From a virus (lineage: Duplodnaviria > Heunggongvirae > Uroviricota > Caudoviricetes): DNA of 32,559 nt. The notes beneath the pieces were generated by a model. The model saw only the letters and a program-made list of their open reading frames with translations, searched no databases and was not told the origin of the DNA. The stretch covers positions 1-32,559 of the IMG/VR virus record IMGVR_UViG_2675903654_000020, one strand, 5' to 3'. Shown here one piece after another: positions 1,794-31,465 of this stretch (the first letter of the stretch is position 1; each line of letters begins with the position of its first letter). Both the position numbers and the translations under genes were made by a program.

Positions 1794-2510
1794 TTAGATT
1801 ACTTTTACGCCTATAAAGGTGTAATCATCCATTATGTTTTTCTCAATCCTTTTTCTTAAACTGTTCGCAAAAGACGTCGGTGAGAGCATTGTTTTCTCAG
1901 AAAACCTTGGTCTGACATCCCAATGCTTATAAGCACCATCGGACATTGCATAAATTTGAAGAGAACCATTAAAAATTAGTTGATTAATCGGAAAAGACAT
2001 TAATTCAAAATTCAGCTCTGTTGTATTTGATAAAGCATTTGTTAGGATTGAAGATAAACGCTCTTTATGATTTCTTAAATTGCGCAATTTATGCTCACCA
2101 GAATCAAGAAGTTCTTGATACCTCGTTTGATCAGTAGTTAACTGATTTAATTTGTTGTTTTTATTAAAGTATACACGGCAATCACCGGAATGGCCAATTA
2201 ACACTTCATTTTTTTTGATATGAACAATTGTTAATGTTGTGGCAGTGCTAATATCTAAATTATCAATTTCTTTTTTAGCCGAATGAAATGCACTTTCAAT
2301 TGAGAAAAAGGAAGTGTCTAGCGCGTGTTTAATACCACGAATGGCAGCATGAGACGCAAGCATTGAATTTTCAGAGGAACCAACGCCATCAGCTACTGCA
2401 AAGACAATGTTAAAATCGCTATCAAAAGATGGCGGTAAATAAAAGTCTTCATTTTCTTTTTTTTGGGGTTGTTTTAGGCTAAAACAAGCCATTTCAATTA
2501 TGTTCTTCAT
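1794..2510 (-). CDS. PP2C-family Ser/Thr protein phosphatase (238 aa)
   Basis: PP2C-like motifs: VADGVGS metal-binding Asp/Gly motif, GHSGDCRVY, MSDGAY, C-terminal DD; ATG with GAGGT RBS; overlaps kinase stop by 17 bp; AT-rich codon usage. Confidence 0.75.
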   Translation of the reverse strand: MKNIIEMACFSLKQPQKKENEDFYLPPSFDSDFNIVFAVADGVGSSENSMLASHAAIRGIKHALDTSFFSIESAFHSAKKEIDNLDISTATTLTIVHIKKNEVLIGHSGDCRVYFNKNNKLNQLTTDQTRYQELLDSGEHKLRNLRNHKERLSSILTNALSNTTELNFELMSFPINQLIFNGSLQIYAMSDGAYKHWDVRPRFSEKTMLSPTSFANSLRKRIEKNIMDDYTFIGVKVI

Positions 2511-3288
2511 TATTTACCTCCCCCATCACTTTTAAAAAATCTTCCAATAACTCCTGTGCGCTCTGATATCGTTCTTCAGGCCAATGGGCGCAACATTTAG
2601 CAATCAATCTTCTTAATTTTTCACTTCTTTCTGTTGGATATATATCAGTGATAATTTTGCCTATAGCGAATATGTCGCTTTGGAAAGAAAAAAGACCGCT
2701 CTCATGTATTTCAGGTGCTCGATATCCGTCTGTACCCATGTGATTGGGCTTAAATTTTGTTTTGACTTCAGCCCGTAGGGTATCTCTATCTTTTACCAGG
2801 CCAAAATCAGATATCTTATATTTCCCATCGGCGTAATAAAGGATGTTTCCTGGTTTTAAATCACGATGTATGTAGTTGTTTTCATGTATGGTGATAATTC
2901 CTTTTAAAATCTGAATGACAGCAGACTTCCTCTCTGCGTCATTCATTCCATTGTTGATGGCTTCATATAAGTTACATTCTGCCAGCTCCATGACAAAATA
3001 AGGTTTATCACCATTTGTATTAAACAAAACTATTGGTGCTATTGAATCATAGTTTATTCTATTGAGTTTGCATTGTGTTTTGATCTCAACTAAAAAACGC
3101 TGTCTTAAATCAGCCAGCTCTTTTATGGCTGTGTTGTCAAAGTCCGGGCAAGGTGAAAAGTATTTGCGAGCATATGTGGTCACGTTGGTCTGGGCTAAAT
3201 TATAGACTTCAACCTTATATACTTCGCCAAACCCCCCTCGTCCTAAACTGCGACCATCTTTAAGTAAATAATTACCGCACCGATCCAC
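2494..3288 (-). CDS. Hanks-type (eukaryotic-like) Ser/Thr protein kinase, kinase domain only (264 aa)
   Basis: Gly-rich loop GRGGFGEV, conserved Lys in ARK, catalytic loop HRDLKPGN, DFG (SDFGL), APE (YRAPE); GTG start with GGGGG RBS; AT-rich. Confidence 0.8.
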   Translation of the reverse strand: MDRCGNYLLKDGRSLGRGGFGEVYKVEVYNLAQTNVTTYARKYFSPCPDFDNTAIKELADLRQRFLVEIKTQCKLNRINYDSIAPIVLFNTNGDKPYFVMELAECNLYEAINNGMNDAERKSAVIQILKGIITIHENNYIHRDLKPGNILYYADGKYKISDFGLVKDRDTLRAEVKTKFKPNHMGTDGYRAPEIHESGLFSFQSDIFAIGKIITDIYPTERSEKLRRLIAKCCAHWPEERYQSAQELLEDFLKVMGEVNNEEHN

Positions 3289-3584
3289 GGCGCCCCCCTA
3301 ACTCTAAGTAATGGATTGATAAGACTGGAAAAACATATATATCTCCTTTTATACACGTTTGCTATTTTTATTGCAATGCTCCACCTGTGGAGGACCAGGA
3401 AGGGCGATATTCTGATGAGTCTTTAACTGATTGAATTCGCTCCGATGCGGGACTTCCCACATCGGGAGAACATTACCACTAGGGGTAAAAACGATTTGCG
3501 GGAAAAGGATAGTTAAGTAGAATTGCTGCGGGTGCTTGAGGCTATCTGTCTCAGGCATGCCACCAAAGGCAGATAGAGAAAAGC

Positions 3585-3650
3585 CCCAGTTAACATTACG
3601 CGTCCTGCAAGACGCTTAACATTAATCTGAGGCCAATTTCATGCCAGACA
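3585..3650 (-). ncRNA. predicted Sok-like antisense RNA of the hok locus (position approximate)
   Basis: Inferred from Hok/Sok family architecture (antisense RNA overlapping the mok start region); boundaries not resolved from sequence. Confidence 0.25.
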
Positions 3651-3853
3651 CATGTAGGTTAGCCTCTTACGTGCCGAAAGGCAAGGAGAAGCAGGCTATG
3701 AAGCAGCAAAAGGCGATGTTAATCGCCCTGATCGTCATCTGTTTAACCGTCATAGTGACGGCACTGGTAACGAGGAAAGACCTCTGCGAGGTACGAATCC
3801 GAACCGGCCAGACGGAGGTCGCTGTCTTCACAGCTTACGAACCTGAGGAGTAA
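3641..3853 (+). CDS. Mok-like overlapping reading frame of the hok locus
   Basis: ATG 3641 in frame with hok and ending at the same stop, as in hok/mok loci. Confidence 0.4.
   Translation: MPDTCRLASYVPKGKEKQAMKQQKAMLIALIVICLTVIVTALVTRKDLCEVRIRTGQTEVAVFTAYEPEE
3698..3853 (+). CDS. hokD: Hok-family type I toxin (51 aa), HokD/RelF-like
   Basis: Protein MKQQKAMLIALIVICLTVIVTALVTRKDLCEVRIRTGQTEVAVFTAYEPEE matches my recollection of HokD; single TM helix; leader homologous to hok mRNA; intrinsic terminator downstream. Confidence 0.8.
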   Translation: MKQQKAMLIALIVICLTVIVTALVTRKDLCEVRIRTGQTEVAVFTAYEPEE

Positions 3854-3921
3854 GAGACCCGGCGGGGGAGAAATCCCTCGCCACCTCTGATGTGTCAGGC
3901 ATCCTCAACGCACCCGCACTA

Positions 3922-3945
3922 AACCCGCTTCGGCGGGTTTTTTGT
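3922..3945 (+). terminator. Rho-independent terminator at the hok mRNA 3' end
   Basis: Stem CCCGC-TTCG-GCGGG followed by a run of 7 T. Confidence 0.7.
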
Positions 3946-4128
3946 TGCGCGCTGAATACGCAGTGTGAAAAATAACCATATATTTGATTATATACACAAC
4001 AAAAAATAAAAGTCATTGTACCTGCACATTAAATAATCAAATATACGGCGTGAAATAAATATTTTTCAGATTAATATTTTTGTCTCTATGTGGATATAAC
4101 CGTTTGTACTTATAAATCTGGAGGCATC

Positions 4129-4341
4129 GTGAAAAAAATAAAGAAACTATTTAGTAGTAAATACGCAGTCATACGTCGTGATGACCTGTCAGTTATAGTC
4201 GAAATGGATTACTTCCCTGAAACCCCAAAATCAATGATGTATCGTAATGGTCGAAAGGCAATTTTTTTACCGATGAGGGTAAGTGACATTATGGGAAATG
4301 ATAAACTGCTGGATGAATTGCGAGTCAGAGCATCCTGTTAG
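4129..4341 (+). CDS. hypothetical small protein, possibly Rem-like (Qin prophage synteny)
   Basis: GTG 4129 with GGAGG RBS 4 nt upstream; the longest ORF (from 4090) would be 83 aa; position between hokD and nin/Q genes resembles the Qin-like order as I recall it. Confidence 0.45.
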   Translation: MKKIKKLFSSKYAVIRRDDLSVIVEMDYFPETPKSMMYRNGRKAIFLPMRVSDIMGNDKLLDELRVRASC

Positions 4342-4412
4342 TATTGGCATTAATTCTGGTATACTACATAACGGGCTGAACACCCATTCTACTGCGCCAG
4401 CGGAGAACTACG

Positions 4413-5012
4413 ATGGCGCATATACAACTGGTCAAACAAACCTCTTCCGGATTACTTCTCCCGGCGACGCCGGAGAGTTGCGATTTTTTGCATCAAATCA
4501 AAATAGGTGAGTGGATACACGCAGACTTTAAGCGTGTACGTAACTACGCATTCCACAAGCGTTTTTTCAAACTCCTGCAACTGGGATTCGATTACTGGAC
4601 TCCGGTCGGTGGGGCGATCACCCCTCGAGAACGAAAACTGGTTTCAGGATTCGTTGATTACCTGTGCGAATCGGTAGGTCGGGAACATACTCCAGCCCTG
4701 AGTGATGCCGCAGAGCAATATTTGAATACCGTTGCGACACGCAGAACCCGGGATACGGCATTGCTAAAGTCGTTTGAGGCTTTCCGCGAGTGGGTAACCA
4801 TTCAGGCCGGATTTTACACCGAGCATATTTATCCGGACGGTAGCCGCGGGCGTCGAGCGAAATCCATCGCGTTTGCGAATATGGACGAAACCGAGTTTCA
4901 GCAGGTTTATAAATCTGTGCTGAATGTGCTGTGGAACTGGATCCTGTTCCGTAAATTTTCCTCTCCGGAACAAGTCGAAAATGTGGCCGCGCAGCTGCTG
5001 GAGTTTGCGTAA
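4413..5012 (+). CDS. hypothetical nin-region protein (199 aa)
   Basis: ATG 4413 with GGAGA RBS; coupled to downstream genes; typical of lambdoid nin region upstream of Q. Confidence 0.55.
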   Translation: MAHIQLVKQTSSGLLLPATPESCDFLHQIKIGEWIHADFKRVRNYAFHKRFFKLLQLGFDYWTPVGGAITPRERKLVSGFVDYLCESVGREHTPALSDAAEQYLNTVATRRTRDTALLKSFEAFREWVTIQAGFYTEHIYPDGSRGRRAKSIAFANMDETEFQQVYKSVLNVLWNWILFRKFSSPEQVENVAAQLLEFA

Positions 5013-5853: not shown

Positions 5854-5879
5854 CTCAATCTGTTATCCGGGGCTATATT
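5850..5879 (+). promoter_or_regulatory. candidate late promoter pR' (TTGACT -35, 18-bp spacer, TATATT -10)
   Basis: -35 TTGACT at 5850-5855 overlapping the Q stop codon, -10 TATATT at 5874-5879. Confidence 0.5.
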
Positions 5880-5940
5880 CCTCACGCGCCAGCAAAATCT
5901 GGCGTCGGGATTGGCGTCCTGGATAGAGACCGCGACAGAT

Positions 5941-5963
5941 ACACGCCGCGAGCGTGTTTTTTA
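5941..5963 (+). terminator. intrinsic terminator downstream of the candidate late promoter (tR'-like)
   Basis: Stem ACACGC / GCGTGT with 5-nt loop followed by TTTTTT. Confidence 0.55.
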
Positions 5964-6123
5964 TTGTCGTATGCACGCGCACATCTGAATTATGGTGGGC
6001 TGTGTGGGGGCGGAGAGATCCGCGCCGGTCGGTTTCCCGGTTACGCCAACCCTGCACAGTTCACCACCAGACGATTGGCGTCGTCGGTGGTGAGTTATTA
6101 AGAAACCACCAGAGGGCGTCATT

Positions 6124-6735
6124 ATGACAACTCAAATTTCTGTTGAAACTCTCTCCCCTATCACCCATAACCAGATTCCTGTTATTACCACCGAACTTTT
6201 GGCGCAGCTTTACGGCACTGAGCCGGTGCGTATTCGCCAGAATCATCATGAGAACAAAGCACGCTTCGTTGAAGGGAAACACTTTTTCAAAGTTGTTGGT
6301 AATGACCTTAAAGAATTGCGGGTAGCTTTAAACTACTCACAAAATTTGCGGGTTACTTTAAGTAACTCACAAAATTTGCAACCATCTTTAAGAGGGTTAC
6401 AAATTTCCCCGAAAGCCCGCTCCCTTATCCTCTGGACAGAACGAGGCGCAGCCCGTCACGCCAAAATGCTCGAAACCGATCAGGCGTGGGATGTGTTCGA
6501 AAAACTGGAAGACTGCTATTTCAGACAAAAGGATCTGTCAGCGCCAGCTTCATGCCAGAAAAGTTACGACACGCGAGTTCTCTGTTATCAGCGAGGCGGT
6601 GTCACTGTTTCCACAATTCAGTTGCGGGATGATGATATTGTTATTTCCCTTGAGTCATGGCTGGAACTGGCGAGAGCCAATGGTTGGTTTGTTGTTCGCA
6701 GAGATAAACTGGTGGAAAGGCTGATGCAGCTTTAA
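6124..6735 (+). CDS. ORF6N-domain (Bro-N/antirepressor-like) protein
   Basis: N-terminal ORF6N-like region (IPVITTELLAQLYGTEPVRIRQNHHENKARFVEGKHFFKV) and conserved LILWTERGAARHAKMLETDQAWDVFEKLE segment; ATG with AGAGGG RBS. Confidence 0.65.
   Translation: MTTQISVETLSPITHNQIPVITTELLAQLYGTEPVRIRQNHHENKARFVEGKHFFKVVGNDLKELRVALNYSQNLRVTLSNSQNLQPSLRGLQISPKARSLILWTERGAARHAKMLETDQAWDVFEKLEDCYFRQKDLSAPASCQKSYDTRVLCYQRGGVTVSTIQLRDDDIVISLESWLELARANGWFVVRRDKLVERLMQL
6318..6377 (+). repeat. two tandem 30-bp units (25/30 identical) inside the ORF6N gene, with a degenerate third copy to about 6406
   Basis: Units 6318-6347 and 6348-6377; each contains a near-palindrome (for example GTTAC-TTTAA-GTAAC); in frame, encoding a 10-aa repeat. 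Confidence 0.6.
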
Positions 6736-8047: not shown

Positions 8048-8423
8048 GCTGGTTATTGTTGCCTTCTTTGTTACCGTCATCGGTTCTTTTATCTGGTCTG
8101 CCGGGCATTACTACAGCAAATATCAGCACGAAAAGGAGCGTGCTGATGAGGCTGTACGAAATGCTGAATCTGCAACAGCCATTACCAGTAACGTCCTGCA
8201 ATCTCTGCAAATCATCAATACAGTTATAGAGGCTAACCAGCATGCAAAACAGCAGATCGCACTGGAGTCACAGAGAACCCAGGAAGATATCAAAGTGGCT
8301 GTTGCGGGTGATGATTGCGCTGTTCGTATCGTTCCTTCTGGCGCAGTTAAGCGGTTGCACGAATACGCGAACGGTATACGTGTCGGTGCCGGTCGTTCCG
8401 TTACCAGCCAGTCTGACGGATGA
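8031..8423 (+). CDS. Rz: i-spanin (Rz-like)
   Basis: N-terminal TM helix, coiled-coil-like middle; ATG overlaps the end of R by 17 bp. Confidence 0.7.
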   Translation: MKLRYKLVIVAFFVTVIGSFIWSAGHYYSKYQHEKERADEAVRNAESATAITSNVLQSLQIINTVIEANQHAKQQIALESQRTQEDIKVAVAGDDCAVRIVPSGAVKRLHEYANGIRVGAGRSVTSQSDG

Positions 8424-8586
8424 AACACCCCAGCCAGATTTACCCGACCCGTTTACGTGGGGAGCCAGCCTTAACCTGAATGTTGCGTTGCTGTCAGCGT
8501 TAGCACAGTGCAACAGGGATAAGGCCGATATCAGGACTTTTGAGAAAAACAGGGCAGCACAAACTAATGGCACGATTAAACGTTGA
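8311..8586 (+). CDS. Rz1: o-spanin lipoprotein (Rz1-like), +1 frame overlapping Rz
   Basis: Signal peptide with lipobox LSGC, proline-rich mature part; starts inside Rz in another frame and extends past the Rz stop. Confidence 0.65.
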   Translation: MIALFVSFLLAQLSGCTNTRTVYVSVPVVPLPASLTDETPQPDLPDPFTWGASLNLNVALLSALAQCNRDKADIRTFEKNRAAQTNGTIKR

Positions 8587-27243: not shown

Positions 27244-27920
27244 GCAAATACACCGAACTAATCACGAACTACCACGCCACCAAACCTAAATTTCTTGCGC
27301 ATGTTGATCTGATGACCCGGCCACTTATTGATGTTGCGGCTGCCACCAGAGGGCTGATTACTGCATTTGATATTGACTCTGCGGTTGGTGTGCAACTTGA
27401 CATTCTTGGATTGTGGATCGGACGTAGCCGTGTTGTCAGCCAGCCTATCTCAGGTGTCTATTTCAGCTGGGATACCGACGGGCTTGGATATGATCAGGGG
27501 GTATGGCAGGGACCATACGATCCTGATTCAGGATACATGTATCTCAGCGATGAAACTTATCGTGTCATTCTTAAAGCGAAGATTGCGATTAATAACTGGG
27601 ATGGACGGAATGATTCGCTTCCGGCAATTCTTGACGCTGCAACAGCAGGATCCGGGCTGCGAATGCAGATAGTCGATAACCAGGACATGACGATATCGGT
27701 CTGGGTCTTTCCTGATACTGATATTTCAGATGTATCGCGTGAGTTAATTGCGGCAATTAAACAGGGGTATCTCACAGTAAAAGCCGCCGGGGTATGGGCG
27801 GGTGGCATTGAAACACCTTCGGTGGAAACCCCATCGGAAGGCTCAAAATTTTTTGGTTTTGATATGGATAACGAATTCATCAGTGGCTTTGATGTAGGAG
27901 CATGGGGAGTATTACTCTGA
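27240..27920 (+). CDS. tail protein (Mu gp48 / P2 gpI-like, putative)
   Basis: ATGA-coupled 226 aa ORF immediately upstream of the tail fibre gene. Confidence 0.5.
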   Translation: MSKYTELITNYHATKPKFLAHVDLMTRPLIDVAAATRGLITAFDIDSAVGVQLDILGLWIGRSRVVSQPISGVYFSWDTDGLGYDQGVWQGPYDPDSGYMYLSDETYRVILKAKIAINNWDGRNDSLPAILDAATAGSGLRMQIVDNQDMTISVWVFPDTDISDVSRELIAAIKQGYLTVKAAGVWAGGIETPSVETPSEGSKFFGFDMDNEFISGFDVGAWGVLL

Positions 27921-29068
27921 TGGCGAAAAATGACTTTAAAGCGTTTGCAACGGATCGAAATGCCAATGTTATATCGCAGGAGGAATGGGAAGCGTTGCCC
28001 GCGCTTTTATCTGGATTTACAGCAGGGAAAGCCTCCAGTGCGCAAGTCAATAAGGTTATTCGGCAGGCCAGCTTTATTGCTGCAGCTCTGGCCCAGTTTG
28101 TAAGTGATAAAACGCAACGGGATGTGCTTGATAATGGTGATCTGCCCGGTTTTGTTGAATTGCTGGGATCGGGGTTTGCTGTTGAATACCTGAGCCGCAA
28201 GAATCCGTTTGGCGATATCAAATCGGACGGCACGGTGAAAACGGCTCTCGAAAATCTTGGTTTAGAAAGATGTGATCAGGACACTAACGAAACACGCATT
28301 TGGTCACCAGACAAAAAATCTTATGTTTTTGTGCAGAATGATGGATGGGGGGCATATTCAATAAATCCCCAGGCAGGGACTATTGCACTGCAATTATCAT
28401 CTGGCGGTACAGGTGCAAAAGATGCTGCCAGCGCGCGTAGTAATCTTGGTCTGGGAGATGTGGCAACGGAGAACACAGTACCTCTGTCTAAGGGGGGAAC
28501 TGGCGGGACTTCTCTGGCAGAAGCGCGTAGTAACCTTGGCGTCAATCGTTTAGTACAAGGCTTAGTTGACACATACATTACTTCACAAAGCGATAACTAT
28601 CGGCTGTTTGTGAATGATAGTGGTGCATGGGGCGTACTTAACAATATCGGAACGCCAATGGCTCTAGCGCTTAGTCAGGGCGGAACCGGCGCGACCACAG
28701 CTGCCGACGCACGAGCAAATTTAGGGCTTGGCTCAGCAGCAACAGCAAACCTGGGAAATGGGGCTAATCAGGTTCCGACAATGGCTAATTTCACATCAGG
28801 TCCTGGCTGGGTGAAATTTCCTGACGGCACCATCATGCAGTTTGGTACGAACATTTCAGGCTCTGCTGGCTACCCAACTGCTGTTAATTTCCCGATACCT
28901 TTTACCGATGATTATCGCGTCGCATGTTCTTTCGATACGCCAACCAGTGCAGAAGACTGCCCGGCATTCTCGACAAGTAAGATAAATAACTATGGTTTTT
29001 ATCTCGCGTCATCGCGTCAGGGGGCTGTCAAAGGAGCTGGTGCCAACTGGATAGCAATAGGAAGATAA
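27902..29068 (+). CDS. tail fibre protein (constant N-terminal part plus currently expressed variable C-terminal part)
   Basis: Three copies of a GGTG...AR.NLGLG motif typical of tail fibres; followed by tail fibre assembly gene; internal Gin-type crossover site at 28245-28270. Confidence 0.7.
   Translation: MGSITLMAKNDFKAFATDRNANVISQEEWEALPALLSGFTAGKASSAQVNKVIRQASFIAAALAQFVSDKTQRDVLDNGDLPGFVELLGSGFAVEYLSRKNPFGDIKSDGTVKTALENLGLERCDQDTNETRIWSPDKKSYVFVQNDGWGAYSINPQAGTIALQLSSGGTGAKDAASARSNLGLGDVATENTVPLSKGGTGGTSLAEARSNLGVNRLVQGLVDTYITSQSDNYRLFVNDSGAWGVLNNIGTPMALALSQGGTGATTAADARANLGLGSAATANLGNGANQVPTMANFTSGPGWVKFPDGTIMQFGTNISGSAGYPTAVNFPIPFTDDYRVACSFDTPTSAEDCPAFSTSKINNYGFYLASSRQGAVKGAGANWIAIGR
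28245..28270. repeat. left recombination site of invertible segment (gix/pix-like, weaker match)
   Basis: CTCTCGAAAATC-TT-GGTTTAGAAAGA resembles the Gin/Hin/Pin site consensus TTnTCnnAAACC-nn-GGTTTnnGAnAA; lies inside the tail fibre gene. Confidence 0.45.
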
Positions 29069-29070
29069 AA

Positions 29071-29508
29071 ATGAAATATTTATACGACGCAGTAACTAAC
29101 GCATTTTATCCATTAGCAATGCAGGCAGACTATGAGGCGGCAGGGATGTGGCCCGAAAAAGGCGTGGAAGTTGATGAAGAGACTTTTGTTGCATTTCAGA
29201 AGCCACCGGAGGGAAAAATGAGGATTGCGGGTGATGATGGTTATCCCGTATGGAGTGATATTCCGCCACTGGCACCTGAAGAACTGATAAAGATGGCAGA
29301 ATACGAGCGTCAGCGGCGCATAGATACTGCCAATGAGCACATGAATAACAGGCAATGGCCAGGTAAAGCAGCTATTGGTCGTCTGAAAGGTGAGGAACTG
29401 GCGCAATATAATTTGTGGCTGGATTATCTGGACGCACTGGAACTGGTTGATACCTCCAGTGCGCCAGATATTGAATGGCCTACGCCTCCGGCAGTTCAGG
29501 CAAGATGA
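29071..29508 (+). CDS. tail fibre assembly protein (Tfa / Mu U-like)
   Basis: 145 aa ORF directly after the fibre gene, AGGAAG RBS. Confidence 0.7.
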   Translation: MKYLYDAVTNAFYPLAMQADYEAAGMWPEKGVEVDEETFVAFQKPPEGKMRIAGDDGYPVWSDIPPLAPEELIKMAEYERQRRIDTANEHMNNRQWPGKAAIGRLKGEELAQYNLWLDYLDALELVDTSSAPDIEWPTPPAVQAR

Positions 29509-30073
29509 CATCCGGCGCGGTGCTGGTATCTGTTGCAGTCACCGCGTCAATGTAATCCAGCACGGCGTTAAGTCGGGTTGTTTCTGTCTGCGTCAGTTTA
29601 CGTGCGGCCTGCAATTTCAGCTGAATCAGACTGATGGAAGCCATTGCAGCATCAATCAGTGACTGACGCTGTGCTTCTGCCGCGTCTACTGCAGCGCTAT
29701 GCTGTGCATCAGTATCGGTCACCCATTTCTCACCATCCCATTTATCGTATGGCGTTAACGGTGAAAGCGTGACATAACCGTCTTTGATGGCACCGATATA
29801 ATCCACTGTAACAGCTGCGCCATTTTCGATTGAGTAAACAGTCTCATTGCGGTGGTCTTCTTCATGGCTCCATCCCTTACCCGTAAATACTGCCACTTTC
29901 CCCGGAATGTATTCGCCAGGGTCAATACCAGTGGAACAGGCGGGCATACTTACGCCAGTATTAATATATTCATCAGACCAGCCCGTATATTCATACGTTA
30001 CTGCATCATAATAAAAACAACGCATATCGCCCGGCACTGTAGCCAGCCCATTTTCATCAAAAACAGGTTTCAT
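29480..30073 (-). CDS. alternative tail fibre assembly protein (U'-like), inverted orientation
   Basis: 197 aa minus-strand ORF converging on and overlapping the + strand assembly gene by 29 bp. Confidence 0.65.
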   Translation of the reverse strand: MKPVFDENGLATVPGDMRCFYYDAVTYEYTGWSDEYINTGVSMPACSTGIDPGEYIPGKVAVFTGKGWSHEEDHRNETVYSIENGAAVTVDYIGAIKDGYVTLSPLTPYDKWDGEKWVTDTDAQHSAAVDAAEAQRQSLIDAAMASISLIQLKLQAARKLTQTETTRLNAVLDYIDAVTATDTSTAPDVILPELPEA

Positions 30074-30582
30074 TATTTAGCCCTTACTAAAAAGTTGAAT
30101 GCGATGTTACGGGGACGCGTTTCAGTACCGCCTGGGTTTTGAAAAGCGGGCAAAGCACTTCCACCCGGCTGACTAACGCCGCTGGTATATAATGGAGAAG
30201 CATTCGAAACGGTGCCAAACACTACATTACTGCCACTTCCATTTAGCCCTAAAAATTTATGCTCGTGCGTTTTGAAATCGTCTGATTGCGCGGAAAGTAA
30301 CGCACGGCCACTATCAACACCACGGCCATCATCCCAGATACGAATGAAATCACCGCGGGCTTCAGGTAATACCAGCGAAGGAAACACTTTTGCCAGCACA
30401 GGGTAATCAGAGGCAGAAAATTTCGCCCCGTTGAACTTCAAAAACACCATACTGGACCAGCTGTCGATTACAGTATTTGGCATTGCAGCGGACGGCCAGA
30501 AGAACGGAACGCCAATAGCTGGAGCACCTTCTCCCAAACCAACGTTTATGAAAATGCAGAAATAACAAGCAAATGGCATCAT
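30073..30582 (-). CDS. alternative tail fibre C-terminal segment (Sv'-like), silent in this orientation
   Basis: Minus-strand frame open up to 30603 without a credible start or RBS; its 5' end carries the gix-like site and encodes ..NVGLGEG.. matching the ..ENLGLE.. junction in the + fibre gene; stop overlaps the U'-like start. Confidence 0.55.
   Translation of the reverse strand: MMPFACYFCIFINVGLGEGAPAIGVPFFWPSAAMPNTVIDSWSSMVFLKFNGAKFSASDYPVLAKVFPSLVLPEARGDFIRIWDDGRGVDSGRALLSAQSDDFKTHEHKFLGLNGSGSNVVFGTVSNASPLYTSGVSQPGGSALPAFQNPGGTETRPRNIAFNFLVRAK
30529..30554. repeat. right recombination site of invertible segment (gix/pix-like, strong match)
   Basis: TTCTCCCAAACC-AA-CGTTTATGAAAA matches the Gin/Hin/Pin site consensus; located just upstream of the invertase gene. 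Confidence 0.6.
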
Positions 30583-30608
30583 TCCTGCTTTTACCAGGGG
30601 GATTTAAC

Positions 30609-31162
30609 ATACTTATTGGCTATGTACGCGTATCAACAAATGACCAGAACACCGATCTGCAACGTAATGCACTGAACTGCGCGGGATGTGAGCGGGTTTT
30701 TGAGGATAAAATCAGTGGCACTAAGTCCGACAGACCGGGGCTTAAAAAACTGCTCAGGACACTATCGGCAGGAGACACTCTGGTTGTCTGGAAGCTGGAC
30801 AGGTTGGGGCGCAGTATGCGGCATCTTGTTACGCTGATAGAAGAGTTGCGTCAGCGTGGCGTGAATTTCCGAAGCCTGACTGACAGTATTGATACCAGCA
30901 CCCCAATGGCCGTTTCTTTTTTCATGTCATGGGTGCCCTGGCTGAAATGGAGCGTGAACTGATTGTTGAACGAACAAAAGCTGGACTGGAAGCTGCTCGC
31001 GCACAGGGACGAATTGGCGGTCGCCGTCCCAAACTTTCATCAGAACAATGGGCGCAGGCCGGGCGACTAATTGCATCAGGAGTTCATCGCCAGAATGTGG
31101 AGATCATCTATGATGTTGGCGTATCGACTTTGTATAAGAAGTTTCCGGTCGGAGATAAATGA
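30609..31162 (+). pseudogene. serine DNA invertase (Pin/Gin/Cin family), apparently disrupted: canonical start replaced by ATA and 1-bp frameshift near 30908
   Basis: N-terminal part ..IGYVRVSTNDQNTDLQRNAL..VWKLDRLGRSM.. ends in frame 0 at 30962; C-terminal part ..MGALAEMERELIVERTKAGL..GRIGGRRPKL.. continues in another frame (30929-31162); a missing G in the GGG run at 30908-30909 explains the shift. Confidence 0.65.
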
Positions 31163-31465
31163 AACCGCAGCACGTCGTATGCAAGAACGTGCCACGGCTG
31201 GCTGATGGACGTTCGATAGCGCGAGTTTGAATGAAAATCAGCCGAAGGTGATTTTACATAATTGCTACGGAATTATTCAATACAGGAATTGCTTGTGTAT
31301 GCATGGATTGACCTGAAATATTCCCGAAAATTTCTCTAAAAAACTCGAAAAAAATGGTAACTAATTGAATGTATTAATATGTAATGGTATGTGTTAGGGA
31401 TTAAAAGATGAGCATAAATTTATTTAACACATTAATTCTAAAGGATTTTGTCGTTTGTTGACGAA

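What the first reader, a model, noticed from the sequence alone, without database searches (positions are those of the whole stretch)
28245..30554. Gin/Pin-type invertible tail fibre segment (host-range switch)
The tail fibre gene is followed by an assembly gene on +, then a second assembly gene and a startless fibre C-terminus on -, then an invertase gene: the Mu G-segment / P1 C-segment / e14 P-segment layout. Two 26-bp sites resembling the Gin/Hin/Pin consensus (AAACC-nn-GGTTT core) flank the unit at 28245-28270 and 30529-30554. Inversion at their centres would fuse the constant fibre part in frame to the alternative C-terminus (..ALENLGL | GEGAPAIGVPFF..). The left site is noticeably degenerate (about 16/26 matches to the right site).
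Basis: partly seen in the sequence, partly recalled or inferred. Interest (0 to 1): 0.6.

Follow-up and report, generated by a model that had tools for sequence, protein, structure and literature searches.

The report
Invertible phage tail-fibre switch, invertase broken
This is an ordinary Pin/Gin-type flip-flop DNA segment that lets an E. coli prophage swap the tip of its tail fibre; it has really flipped in nature at the predicted sites, although its own flipping enzyme gene is broken.

Summary
The layout is fibre gene, assembly gene (+), assembly gene (-), startless fibre C-terminus (-), then an invertase gene. Two 26-bp sites lie at 28245-28270 (core TT) and 30529-30554 (core AA). The right site is identical to the right site of the E. 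coli e14 P segment. The left site matches the e14 left site at 21/26.

Another E. coli assembly (L027, same pphA locus) is colinear with the in-silico inverted window: 99.57% over 4,681 bp, no gaps. It carries exactly the predicted hybrid sites. So inversion at these two sites has happened in nature.

Its start codon is ATG->ATA and it has a 1-bp deletion. The same two lesions occur in several independent assemblies and in both orientation states. The invertase was therefore most likely supplied in trans by another prophage, as published for e14; this step is inferred.

This is a new member of a well-known kind, of low interest. It sits in a myovirus-tailed prophage next to pphA.

The parts
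27920..29068 (+). Tail fibre gene as currently expressed (382 aa). It joins the constant N-terminal part (27920-28256) to a long gp53-like variable C-terminus.
   Evidence: ORF. Pfam Gp53-like_C, E 3e-10. The exact protein occurs on 12 public contigs.
28245..28270 (.). Left crossover site CTCTCGAAAATC TT GGTTTAGAAAGA, with core TT at 28257-28258. It lies inside the fibre ORF (codons ..ALENLGLER..).
   Evidence: It matches the e14 left site at 21/26 (hand count). It was used as a crossover site in L027.
28259..29068 (+). Variable cassette 1 (ON): a long gp53-like C-terminus with three ..A(R/N)xNLG.. repeats.
   Evidence: It is found in the OFF state as 283-aa ORFs P0244, P0245 and P0247.
29071..29508 (+). 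Tail fibre assembly protein (145 aa), the chaperone that goes with cassette 1.
   Evidence: Pfam Caudo_TAP, E 5.8e-33.
29480..30073 (-). Tail fibre assembly protein (197 aa), TfaE-like, the chaperone that goes with cassette 2.
   Evidence: Pfam Caudo_TAP, E 2.2e-24. 122/197 residues identical to e14 TfaE.
30073..30540 (-). Variable cassette 2 (OFF): a startless StfE-like (tail-collar type) fibre C-terminus, 156 aa, with the reading frame intact.
   Evidence: 41% identical to e14 StfE, E 1e-34. The in-silico fusion is 98-99% identical to P0001-P0004.
30529..30554 (.). Right crossover site TTCTCCCAAACC AA CGTTTATGAAAA, with core AA at 30541-30542.
   Evidence: 26/26 identical to the e14 right site. 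It contains the published e14 inverted repeat CCTTCTCCCAAACCAA (PMC12529663).
30609..31162 (+). pin invertase pseudogene. The start codon is ATG->ATA (30609-30611). One G is missing from the GGG run (30908-30909), which shifts the frame at codon 101.
   Evidence: Alignment to e14 pinE and GCEC19 pin. After repair, 166/184 residues match PinE. RefSeq calls the identical COL60J copy 'frameshifted'. The lesions are shared by L001, L012-L014, L027 and L028.
30627..30698 (+). Stretch equivalent to the recombinational (Fis) enhancer annotated in P1 cin (nt 19-90 of the invertase gene).
   Evidence: P1 annotation and alignment. 64/72 nt match e14 (hand count). Its function was not tested.

Best explanation
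This is a Pin-type (e14 P-segment-like) invertible tail-fibre segment. It belongs to a prophage with lambdoid early genes and a contractile tail, inserted next to pphA in E. coli.

**How the switch works (from knowledge of the family).** A small serine invertase binds as dimers to the two 26-bp sites. Together with a Fis-bound enhancer it cuts both sites at their central dinucleotide (TT at 28257-8, AA at 30541-2) and rotates the ends. This inverts 28257-30542.

**What flipping changes.** In the present orientation the constant fibre N-terminus (27920-28256) is joined to a long gp53-like receptor-binding C-terminus, followed by its chaperone. After flipping it is joined in frame to a tail-collar-type (StfE-like) C-terminus, followed by the other chaperone. 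The expected result is a change in which bacteria the phage can adsorb to; this is inferred.

**What is special about this copy.** The adjacent invertase gene is dead: the start codon is lost and there is a -1 frameshift. Yet the same element, carrying the same two lesions, exists in both orientations in different isolates. The most likely reading is that a related invertase from another prophage in the cell flips the segment in trans, and probably rarely.

**Shown here:** the anatomy, the homology, natural inversion at these sites, and the pseudogene.

**Inferred:** the trans supply of invertase, the use of Fis and the enhancer, and the host-range effect.
For: - **Anatomy and in-frame swap:**
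- **Sites:** the right site is identical to the e14 right site and the left site is 21/26 to the e14 left site. Both resemble cix and gix sites taken from annotated P1 and Mu records.
- **Natural inversion:** L027 is colinear with the in-silico inverted window (99.57% over 4,681 bp, no gaps). Against the real window it splits three ways: left flank up to 28263, 28257-30542 inverted (99.78%), right flank from 30536. It carries the hybrid sites CTCTCGAAAATCTTGGTTTGGGAGAA and TCTTTCTAAACCAACGTTTATGAAAA. This places the exchange inside the 7-bp identity TTGGTTT, which includes the core.
- **OFF-state ORFs:** MMPFA(C/R)YFCIFINVGL|ERCDQD.. proteins exist in public data.
- **Same cassette in both states across the family:** among 5,426 complete E. 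coli genomes, the junction 'constant part | StfE-like' occurs in 155 and 'StfE-like | pin' in 249. L002 and L008 differ by inversion at the same locus.
- **Pseudogene:**. The identical lesions occur in L001, L012-14, L028 (ON state) and L027 (OFF state).
- **Trans action is established for this family:** PinQ, PinR and PinE all invert the e14 segment (PMC12529663). Of 5,426 E. coli genomes, 3,523 carry related modules, with a median of 2 places per genome.
Against: - No sequencing reads were available, so ongoing inversion within one culture is not shown.
- No other invertase gene can be seen, because only this window is available.
- The ON state predominates among contigs carrying this allele: window, L012-14 and L028 are ON, against L027 OFF.
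- The left flank of L027 is only 96.4% identical to the window, so homologous recombination has also reshaped the region.
- The enhancer-equivalent stretch differs from e14 at 8 of 72 positions, with unknown effect.
- The left site carries T instead of C at position 11 of its outer half. This is not seen in the cix, gix or e14 sites, though L008 has the same change in another half-site next to an intact pin.
Confidence: 0.7

Rival explanations
1. Frozen relic. The segment inverted only while pin was still intact. The two pin lesions arose later and spread to both orientation states by homologous recombination or gene conversion. Today the segment is locked.
For: The pin ORF is clearly disrupted. 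The region is mosaic: the L027 left flank is 96.4% identical against 99.8-99.95% for the rest, and the + cassette differs between COL60J and the window although their pin is identical. Most carriers are in the ON state.
Against: Moving both lesions (30611 and 30908) into an oppositely oriented copy needs a crossover within the 54 bp between the right site and the mutated start codon. Otherwise it needs a short conversion tract. The segment and right flank of L027 differ from the window by only 6 substitutions in about 4.3 kb, so the flip is recent relative to the shared lesions.
Confidence: 0.2
2. Leaky pseudogene. A little full-length Pin is still made. Translation would start at the in-frame upstream ATG (30573) or at the ATA. 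A -1 ribosomal slip on T TTT TTC (30917-30923) lies in register in the mutant frame and would restore the downstream frame, giving ..MAVSFFHVMG.. instead of ..MGRFFFHVMG...
For: The heptamer and its register are read directly from the sequence. Both orientation states carry the same lesions.
Against: There is no stimulatory RNA structure downstream (z = 0.15). There is no Shine-Dalgarno sequence before the upstream ATG. Three residues at the start of helix E would be changed. Trans action is a simpler and documented explanation.
Confidence: 0.05
3. Not a site-specific switch. The resemblance of the left site is chance, and the L027 arrangement arose by RecA-dependent or illegitimate recombination.
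For: The left site alone scores at a level expected 0.12 times per window by chance. A generic inverted-repeat search does not pick out the pair.
Against: The two sites share only 7 bp of identity, which is too short for RecA. The breakpoints fall exactly on the two consensus sites, at the position homologous to the left site of e14 and its relatives. Hundreds of genomes show the same two junction types.
Confidence: 0.02

Closest known systems
P segment / PinE of the E. coli K-12 cryptic prophage e14 (stfP-tfaP-tfaE-stfE-pinE)
   Same: The gene order is the same. The right crossover site is identical at 26/26 and the left site at 21/26. The repaired Pin is 166/184 identical to PinE. Tfa(-) is 122/197 identical to TfaE, and the silent C-terminus is 41% identical to StfE.
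   Different: - It sits in a different, apparently complete myovirus-tailed prophage next to pphA rather than at icd.
- The + cassette is a long gp53-like type carrying about 150 extra residues.
- The inner halves of the two sites are not a perfect inverted repeat.
- The invertase is a pseudogene.
G segment / Gin of phage Mu and C segment / Cin of phage P1
   Same: - The logic is the same: Sc-Sv/U versus Sv'/U' plus an adjacent serine invertase.
- The crossover sites are 26 bp with an AAACC..GGTTT core.
- The enhancer lies inside the 5' end of the invertase gene.
- The repaired Pin matches the Gin crystal structures 3uj3 and 4m6f at E 9e-92 and 2.4e-90.
   Different: Protein identity is lower: 138/193 to Gin and 143/186 to Cin. 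The core dinucleotide is TT/AA, as in cix and e14, not the TC/GA of gix. The cassettes are much shorter. The invertase is not intact.
Invertible segments flipped by an invertase from another element (PinQ/PinR on e14; Fin on the Salmonella H segment)
   Same: The segment exists in both orientations although its own invertase is defective. This fits trans action as published (PMC12529663).
   Different: The trans-acting enzyme is not identified here. In e14 the resident pinE is intact. No anti-phage role of the chimeric fibre protein was tested.
Multiple-inversion systems (Min of p15B; P2-like shufflon in EPEC, PMC4272514)
   Same: The invertase family is the same, and fibre C-termini are exchanged.
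   Different: Only two sites and two cassettes are present. No third 26-mer in the window reaches 14/20.

Membership tests
Gin/Cin/Pin/Hin-type invertible tail-fibre segment | A gene of the small serine DNA-invertase family (Resolvase catalytic domain plus C-terminal HTH_7) lies directly beside the segment. | tested here: met
   Pfam Resolvase, E 5e-37, and HTH_7, E 1.7e-11, on the two ORF pieces. After repair it is 90% identical to PinE. It matches the Gin structures at E 9e-92.
Gin/Cin/Pin/Hin-type invertible tail-fibre segment | The invertase ORF is intact, so the switch is autonomous. | tested here: not met
   The start codon is ATG->ATA and there is a 1-bp deletion at 30908-9, compared with e14 and GCEC19. 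The lesions are identical in six other public sequences. RefSeq annotates the identical copy as 'frameshifted'.
Gin/Cin/Pin/Hin-type invertible tail-fibre segment | Two 26-bp quasi-palindromic crossover sites in inverted orientation, with matching central dinucleotides. | tested here: met
   L has core TT and R has core AA. R is identical to the e14 right site. L is 21/26 to the e14 left site and scores 15/20 against the consensus, compared with 17-18/20 for cix and gix.
Gin/Cin/Pin/Hin-type invertible tail-fibre segment | One site lies inside the fibre ORF, so that inversion swaps the C-terminus in frame. Two opposed sets of C-terminus plus chaperone are present. | tested here: met
   The in-frame fusion gives a 268/274-aa protein. 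Two Caudo_TAP genes lie on opposite strands. The fusion product occurs in nature.
Gin/Cin/Pin/Hin-type invertible tail-fibre segment | Both orientations occur, with breakpoints at the sites. | tested here: met
   L027 equals the inverted window and carries the predicted hybrid sites. Window versus L008 and L002 versus L008 show the same breakpoints. The two junction types occur in 155 and 249 genomes.
Gin/Cin/Pin/Hin-type invertible tail-fibre segment | A Fis-dependent recombinational enhancer in cis, within the 5' part of the invertase gene. | tested here: inconclusive
   The stretch equivalent to the annotated P1 enhancer is present at 30627-30698, about 85-155 bp from the right site core. 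It matches e14 at 64/72. Fis binding cannot be tested with these tools.
Gin/Cin/Pin/Hin-type invertible tail-fibre segment | Mixed orientations within one clonal population (ongoing switching). | not testable with these tools
   No read data could be accessed. Runs that carry the element are listed.
Multiple-inversion (shufflon-like, Min-type) fibre system | Three or more crossover sites and three or more alternative cassettes. | tested here: not met
   Only two 26-mers score >=15/20; the next best in the window score 13/20. An internal NLGLG repeat at 28434 scores only 12/20.

The most novel reading that the evidence does not exclude
The pin 'pseudogene' is not dead. The 1-nt deletion places a T TTT TTC slippery heptamer (30917-30923) in register, so that a -1 ribosomal frameshift restores the invertase frame. 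Together with a poor start codon, this would give a very low dose of enzyme and make inversion rare by design. Such a frameshift-throttled DNA invertase would explain why copies with identical lesions exist in both orientations without invoking a helper prophage.
Probability: 0.04. Interest if true: 0.55.

Novelty: new member of a known kind. Interest (0 to 1): 0.2.

Why it matters
The finding has practical value for annotation. The 'incomplete phage tail protein', the paired chaperone genes and the 'frameshifted pinE' at this locus are parts of one invertible host-range module. They are not unrelated debris. Assemblies of the same strain may legitimately differ by a 2.3-kb inversion here.

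It also gives a natural example of two things:
- A crossover site with five changes from the canonical e14 sequence still recombines.
- An invertible segment keeps flipping after its own invertase has decayed, which supports the published idea that Pin-family invertases of different prophages service each other's segments.

Because the two sites share only 7 bp of identity, the natural recombinant maps the exchange to TTGGTTT around the core. It does not open a new question.

Tried and rejected
- **A wrong conclusion that I corrected.** A homologue search with the hypothetical OFF-state ORF returned only 382- and 367-aa ON-state proteins. I had concluded that the long cassette never inverts and that the left site was dead. 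That search lists only cluster representatives. Listing the cluster members revealed three 283-aa OFF-state ORFs and led to L027.
- **Metagenome scan.** An exact scan for the predicted hybrid right site found nothing. This is uninformative, because the carriers are isolate genomes.
- **Generic inverted-repeat search.** It lists 21 pairs in 27900-31200 but not the two sites. The pair cannot be recognised as a plain inverted repeat.
- **Frameshift stimulator.** Folding the RNA downstream of the slippery heptamer gave no structure (z = 0.15).
- **Complete-genome search for the long cassette.** Only three of the 5,426 complete genomes hold it (A41, 33-6, 58-3). All lack pin and a second cassette. 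This first suggested that the cassette came from a non-invertible fibre. L015, L027, L029 and the OFF-state ORFs show that it also lives in invertible contexts.
- **Access failures.** A review on serine invertases (PMC4384473) is not held.
- **Not attempted.** I did not try to judge half-site quality from published Hin or Gin mutagenesis, because no accessible source was found.
Full report
**Observation**

The ORF map shows a fibre gene at 27902/27920-29068 (+). It is followed by a 145-aa gene at 29071-29508 (+) and a convergent 197-aa gene at 29480-30073 (-). Next comes a startless ORF at 30073-30582 (-), then two overlapping ORF pieces at 30573-30962 and 30929-31162 (+).

Pfam assigns these genes as follows:
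- Gp53-like_C to the fibre C-terminus.
- Caudo_TAP to both small genes.
- A weak Collar hit to the minus-strand ORF.
- Resolvase and HTH_7 to the last two pieces.
- Upstream, DUF2612 and Baseplate_J.

They match each other at 16/26.

They are the only 26-mers in the window that score >=15/20 against TTCTCNNAAACCNNGGTTTNNGAGAA. They are also the only matches to AAAYCWWSGTTT, where 0.14 are expected. The right site (18/20) never arose in 300 shuffles. The left site (15/20) would arise by chance about 0.12 times per window. A generic inverted-repeat search does not report the pair. The left site is therefore credible only because of where it lies.

Inverting 28257-30542 in silico fuses ..ALENLGL to GEGAPAIGVPFF.. 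in frame.

**Context**

The window is the late region of a prophage:
- Early and control genes: NinB, Q, and an anti-repressor with C4/isrK RNAs.
- Lysis genes.
- Head genes: terminase, portal and capsid.
- Tail genes: sheath, tape measure and baseplate.

The prophage ends next to pphA-yebW-yebV-rsmF of E. coli. Related induced phages exist, such as vB_EcoM-606R2, at 97% identity over the baseplate-to-invertase region.

**Homology with known systems**

In K-12 e14 the order is stfP-tfaP-tfaE-stfE-pinE. Its sites are CTCTCGAAAACCTTGGTTTGGGAGAA and TTCTCCCAAACCAACGTTTATGAAAA.
- The window's right site is identical to the second of these.
- The left site differs from the first at 5 positions: one in the outer half (C->T at position 11) and four in the inner half.

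The published e14 inverted repeat, TTGGTTTGGGAGAAGG / CCTTCTCCCAAACCAA (PMC12529663), is thus intact on the right and 11/16 on the left. Sites taken from the annotated P1 and Mu records have the same build.

The left site lies 325 nt into the fibre gene, the same offset as in relatives L006 and L007.

Protein comparisons:
- The silent C-terminus is 41% identical to StfE.
- Tfa(-) is 62% identical to TfaE.
- The repaired invertase is 90% identical to PinE, 77% to Cin and 71% to Gin.
- It matches the Gin structures at E 9e-92.

**Evidence that the segment inverts**

Across the family:
- Prophages at the same pphA locus differ by inversion bounded by the sites. This holds for L002 versus L008 and for the window versus L008.
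- In 5,426 complete E. coli genomes, the junction 'constant part | StfE-like C-terminus' occurs in 155 genomes. The junction 'StfE-like C-terminus | pin flank' occurs in 249.

For this very element:
- Cluster members P0244, P0245 and P0247 are 283-aa ORFs reading MMPFA(C/R)YFCIFINVGL|ERCDQD... This is exactly the predicted OFF-state ORF of the long cassette.
- Assembly GCA_041882125.1 (L027) is at the same pphA locus. It is colinear with the in-silico inverted window at 99.57% over 4,681 bp without gaps.
- Against the real window, L027 splits at 28257-28263 and 30536-30542, with the middle inverted at 99.78%.
- Its sites are the predicted hybrids CTCTCGAAAATC TT GGTTTGGGAGAA and TCTTTCTAAACC AA CGTTTATGAAAA.
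- L and the reverse complement of R share only TTGGTTT, so the exchange is mapped to that 7-bp stretch around the core.
- This fits a serine invertase. Seven base pairs is too short for RecA.

**State of the invertase**

Relative to e14 pinE and the intact pin of GCEC19, the window has ATA in place of the ATG start and lacks one G of a GGG run. This shifts the frame at codon 101, the start of helix E, and separates the catalytic domain from the HTH domain.

The lesions are not sequencing errors:
- L001 (COL60J), L013 and L014 are 100% identical over the 554 nt, and L012 is 99.8% identical.
- L028, an IMG/VR contig, has both lesions.
- RefSeq flags the COL60J copy as frameshifted.
- L027, the inverted copy, has the same two lesions.

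**Most likely mechanism**

The switch works as in e14, P1 and Mu. Invertase dimers bind the two sites and a Fis-bound enhancer lies within the 5' part of the invertase gene. That stretch is present at 30627-30698 and matches e14 at 64/72. Cleavage at the central dinucleotide and a 180-degree rotation follow; this part rests on established knowledge of the family (PMC3798978).

Both orientation states share identical pin lesions, while the segment and right flank differ by only 6 substitutions in about 4.3 kb. The flip therefore most probably happened after pin died. It would have been catalysed by a related invertase from another prophage.

Cross-action of PinQ, PinR and PinE on e14 is published. 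Related modules are common in E. coli: 3,523 of 5,426 genomes carry one, with a median of 2 places per genome. This step is inferred, because the rest of the genome is not visible.

**Rival explanations**

- **Locked relic.** The lesions would have spread to both orientations by recombination. This is possible because the region is mosaic: the L027 left flank is 96.4% identical, and the + cassette differs between COL60J and the window. It needs a crossover within 54 bp or a short conversion tract.
- **Leaky pin.** A -1 slip on T TTT TTC (30917-30923) would restore the frame. No downstream structure supports it.
- **Chance or RecA.** This is contradicted.

**Evolution of the left site**

The long + cassette carries about 150 extra residues between the crossover motif ENLGL and the stretch that aligns with the start of canonical short gp53-like cassettes. 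Its inner half-site GGTTTAGAAAGA travels with it.
- It occurs in prophages with no invertase (A41, 33-6).
- It occurs beside an intact Pin (L015).
- It occurs beside the pseudogene (window, L012-14, L028).

All fibre genes of this family carry the outer half-site plus GGTTT, because it encodes ALENLGL. This includes the non-invertible ones (L019-24).

**Novelty**

Every component and the mechanism are known, and RefSeq already names the parts. This copy is a new member of a known kind. It adds two modest points:
- A natural recombinant proves that a diverged site is usable.
- An invertible segment has outlived its own invertase.

Interest is low.

**Limits**

I had no reads, no whole genome of the source strain and no experiment. 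Host-range change, Fis dependence and the identity of the helper invertase are all inferred.

Noticed in passing
window 30609-31162: The pin invertase next to the segment is a pseudogene (ATG->ATA start, 1-bp deletion at 30908-9). Identical lesions occur in at least six other public sequences.
   Followed up: yes
window 30917-30923: In the mutant pin frame, T TTT TTC forms a -1 slippery heptamer that would restore the original frame. No downstream RNA structure was found (z = 0.15).
   Followed up: partly
window 28434-28459: An internal fibre repeat (..ARSNLGLGD..) reads CGCGTAGTAATC TT GGTCTGGGAGAT. Its right half is 10/12 to the canonical inner half-site, and it has the same reading frame relative to the core. 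Overall it scores only 12/20. It may be a quasi-site; I saw no evidence that it is used.
   Followed up: no
L019-L024 (loci), about 8331-8450: Sister prophages, some at the same pphA locus and some at other chromosomal loci, have a non-invertible 376-aa fibre plus one chaperone, followed by an acyltransferase gene. They retain only the last 120 bp of pin (95% identical). This is a remnant showing that the switch was lost by replacement.
   Followed up: partly
L001 (COL60J) 3239-4467: The closest complete genome has an IS3 element inserted 27 nt into the fibre gene. It has a different short gp53-like cassette with yet another left-site variant (CTCTCTCAAATCTTGGTTTAAAAGAA), but an identical pin pseudogene.
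   Followed up: partly
L008 7196-7221: A relative with an intact Pin has TTCTCCCAAATC in the inner half of its right site. This is the same C->T change at position 11 that the window has in its left outer half.
   Followed up: no
window 3530-3703 and 5873-6071: Rfam finds a sok antitoxin RNA (hok/sok-type), and isrK plus C4 antisense RNA with its a1b1 target. These lie just upstream of an anti-repressor gene (6124-6735), giving a P1/P7-style immunity control in a lambdoid early region.
   Followed up: no
window 1794-3288 (-): Adjacent genes encode a eukaryote-like Ser/Thr protein kinase (Pkinase, E 9e-32) and a PP2C-type phosphatase in the prophage early region.
   Followed up: no
window 24351-24716 (-): A 121-aa ORF on the opposite strand sits among the baseplate genes, with no Pfam or PHROG match. 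The same slot in relatives holds different cargo: DUF4282, a Phd/Fic pair, or DUF2335. It looks like a variable moron site.
   Followed up: partly
L016, L017, L018; L009-L011; L027 start: Many draft contigs break inside the chaperone genes or at the fibre gene start. This is probably because these sequences are repeated among prophages. The breaks are not at the 26-bp sites.
   Followed up: no
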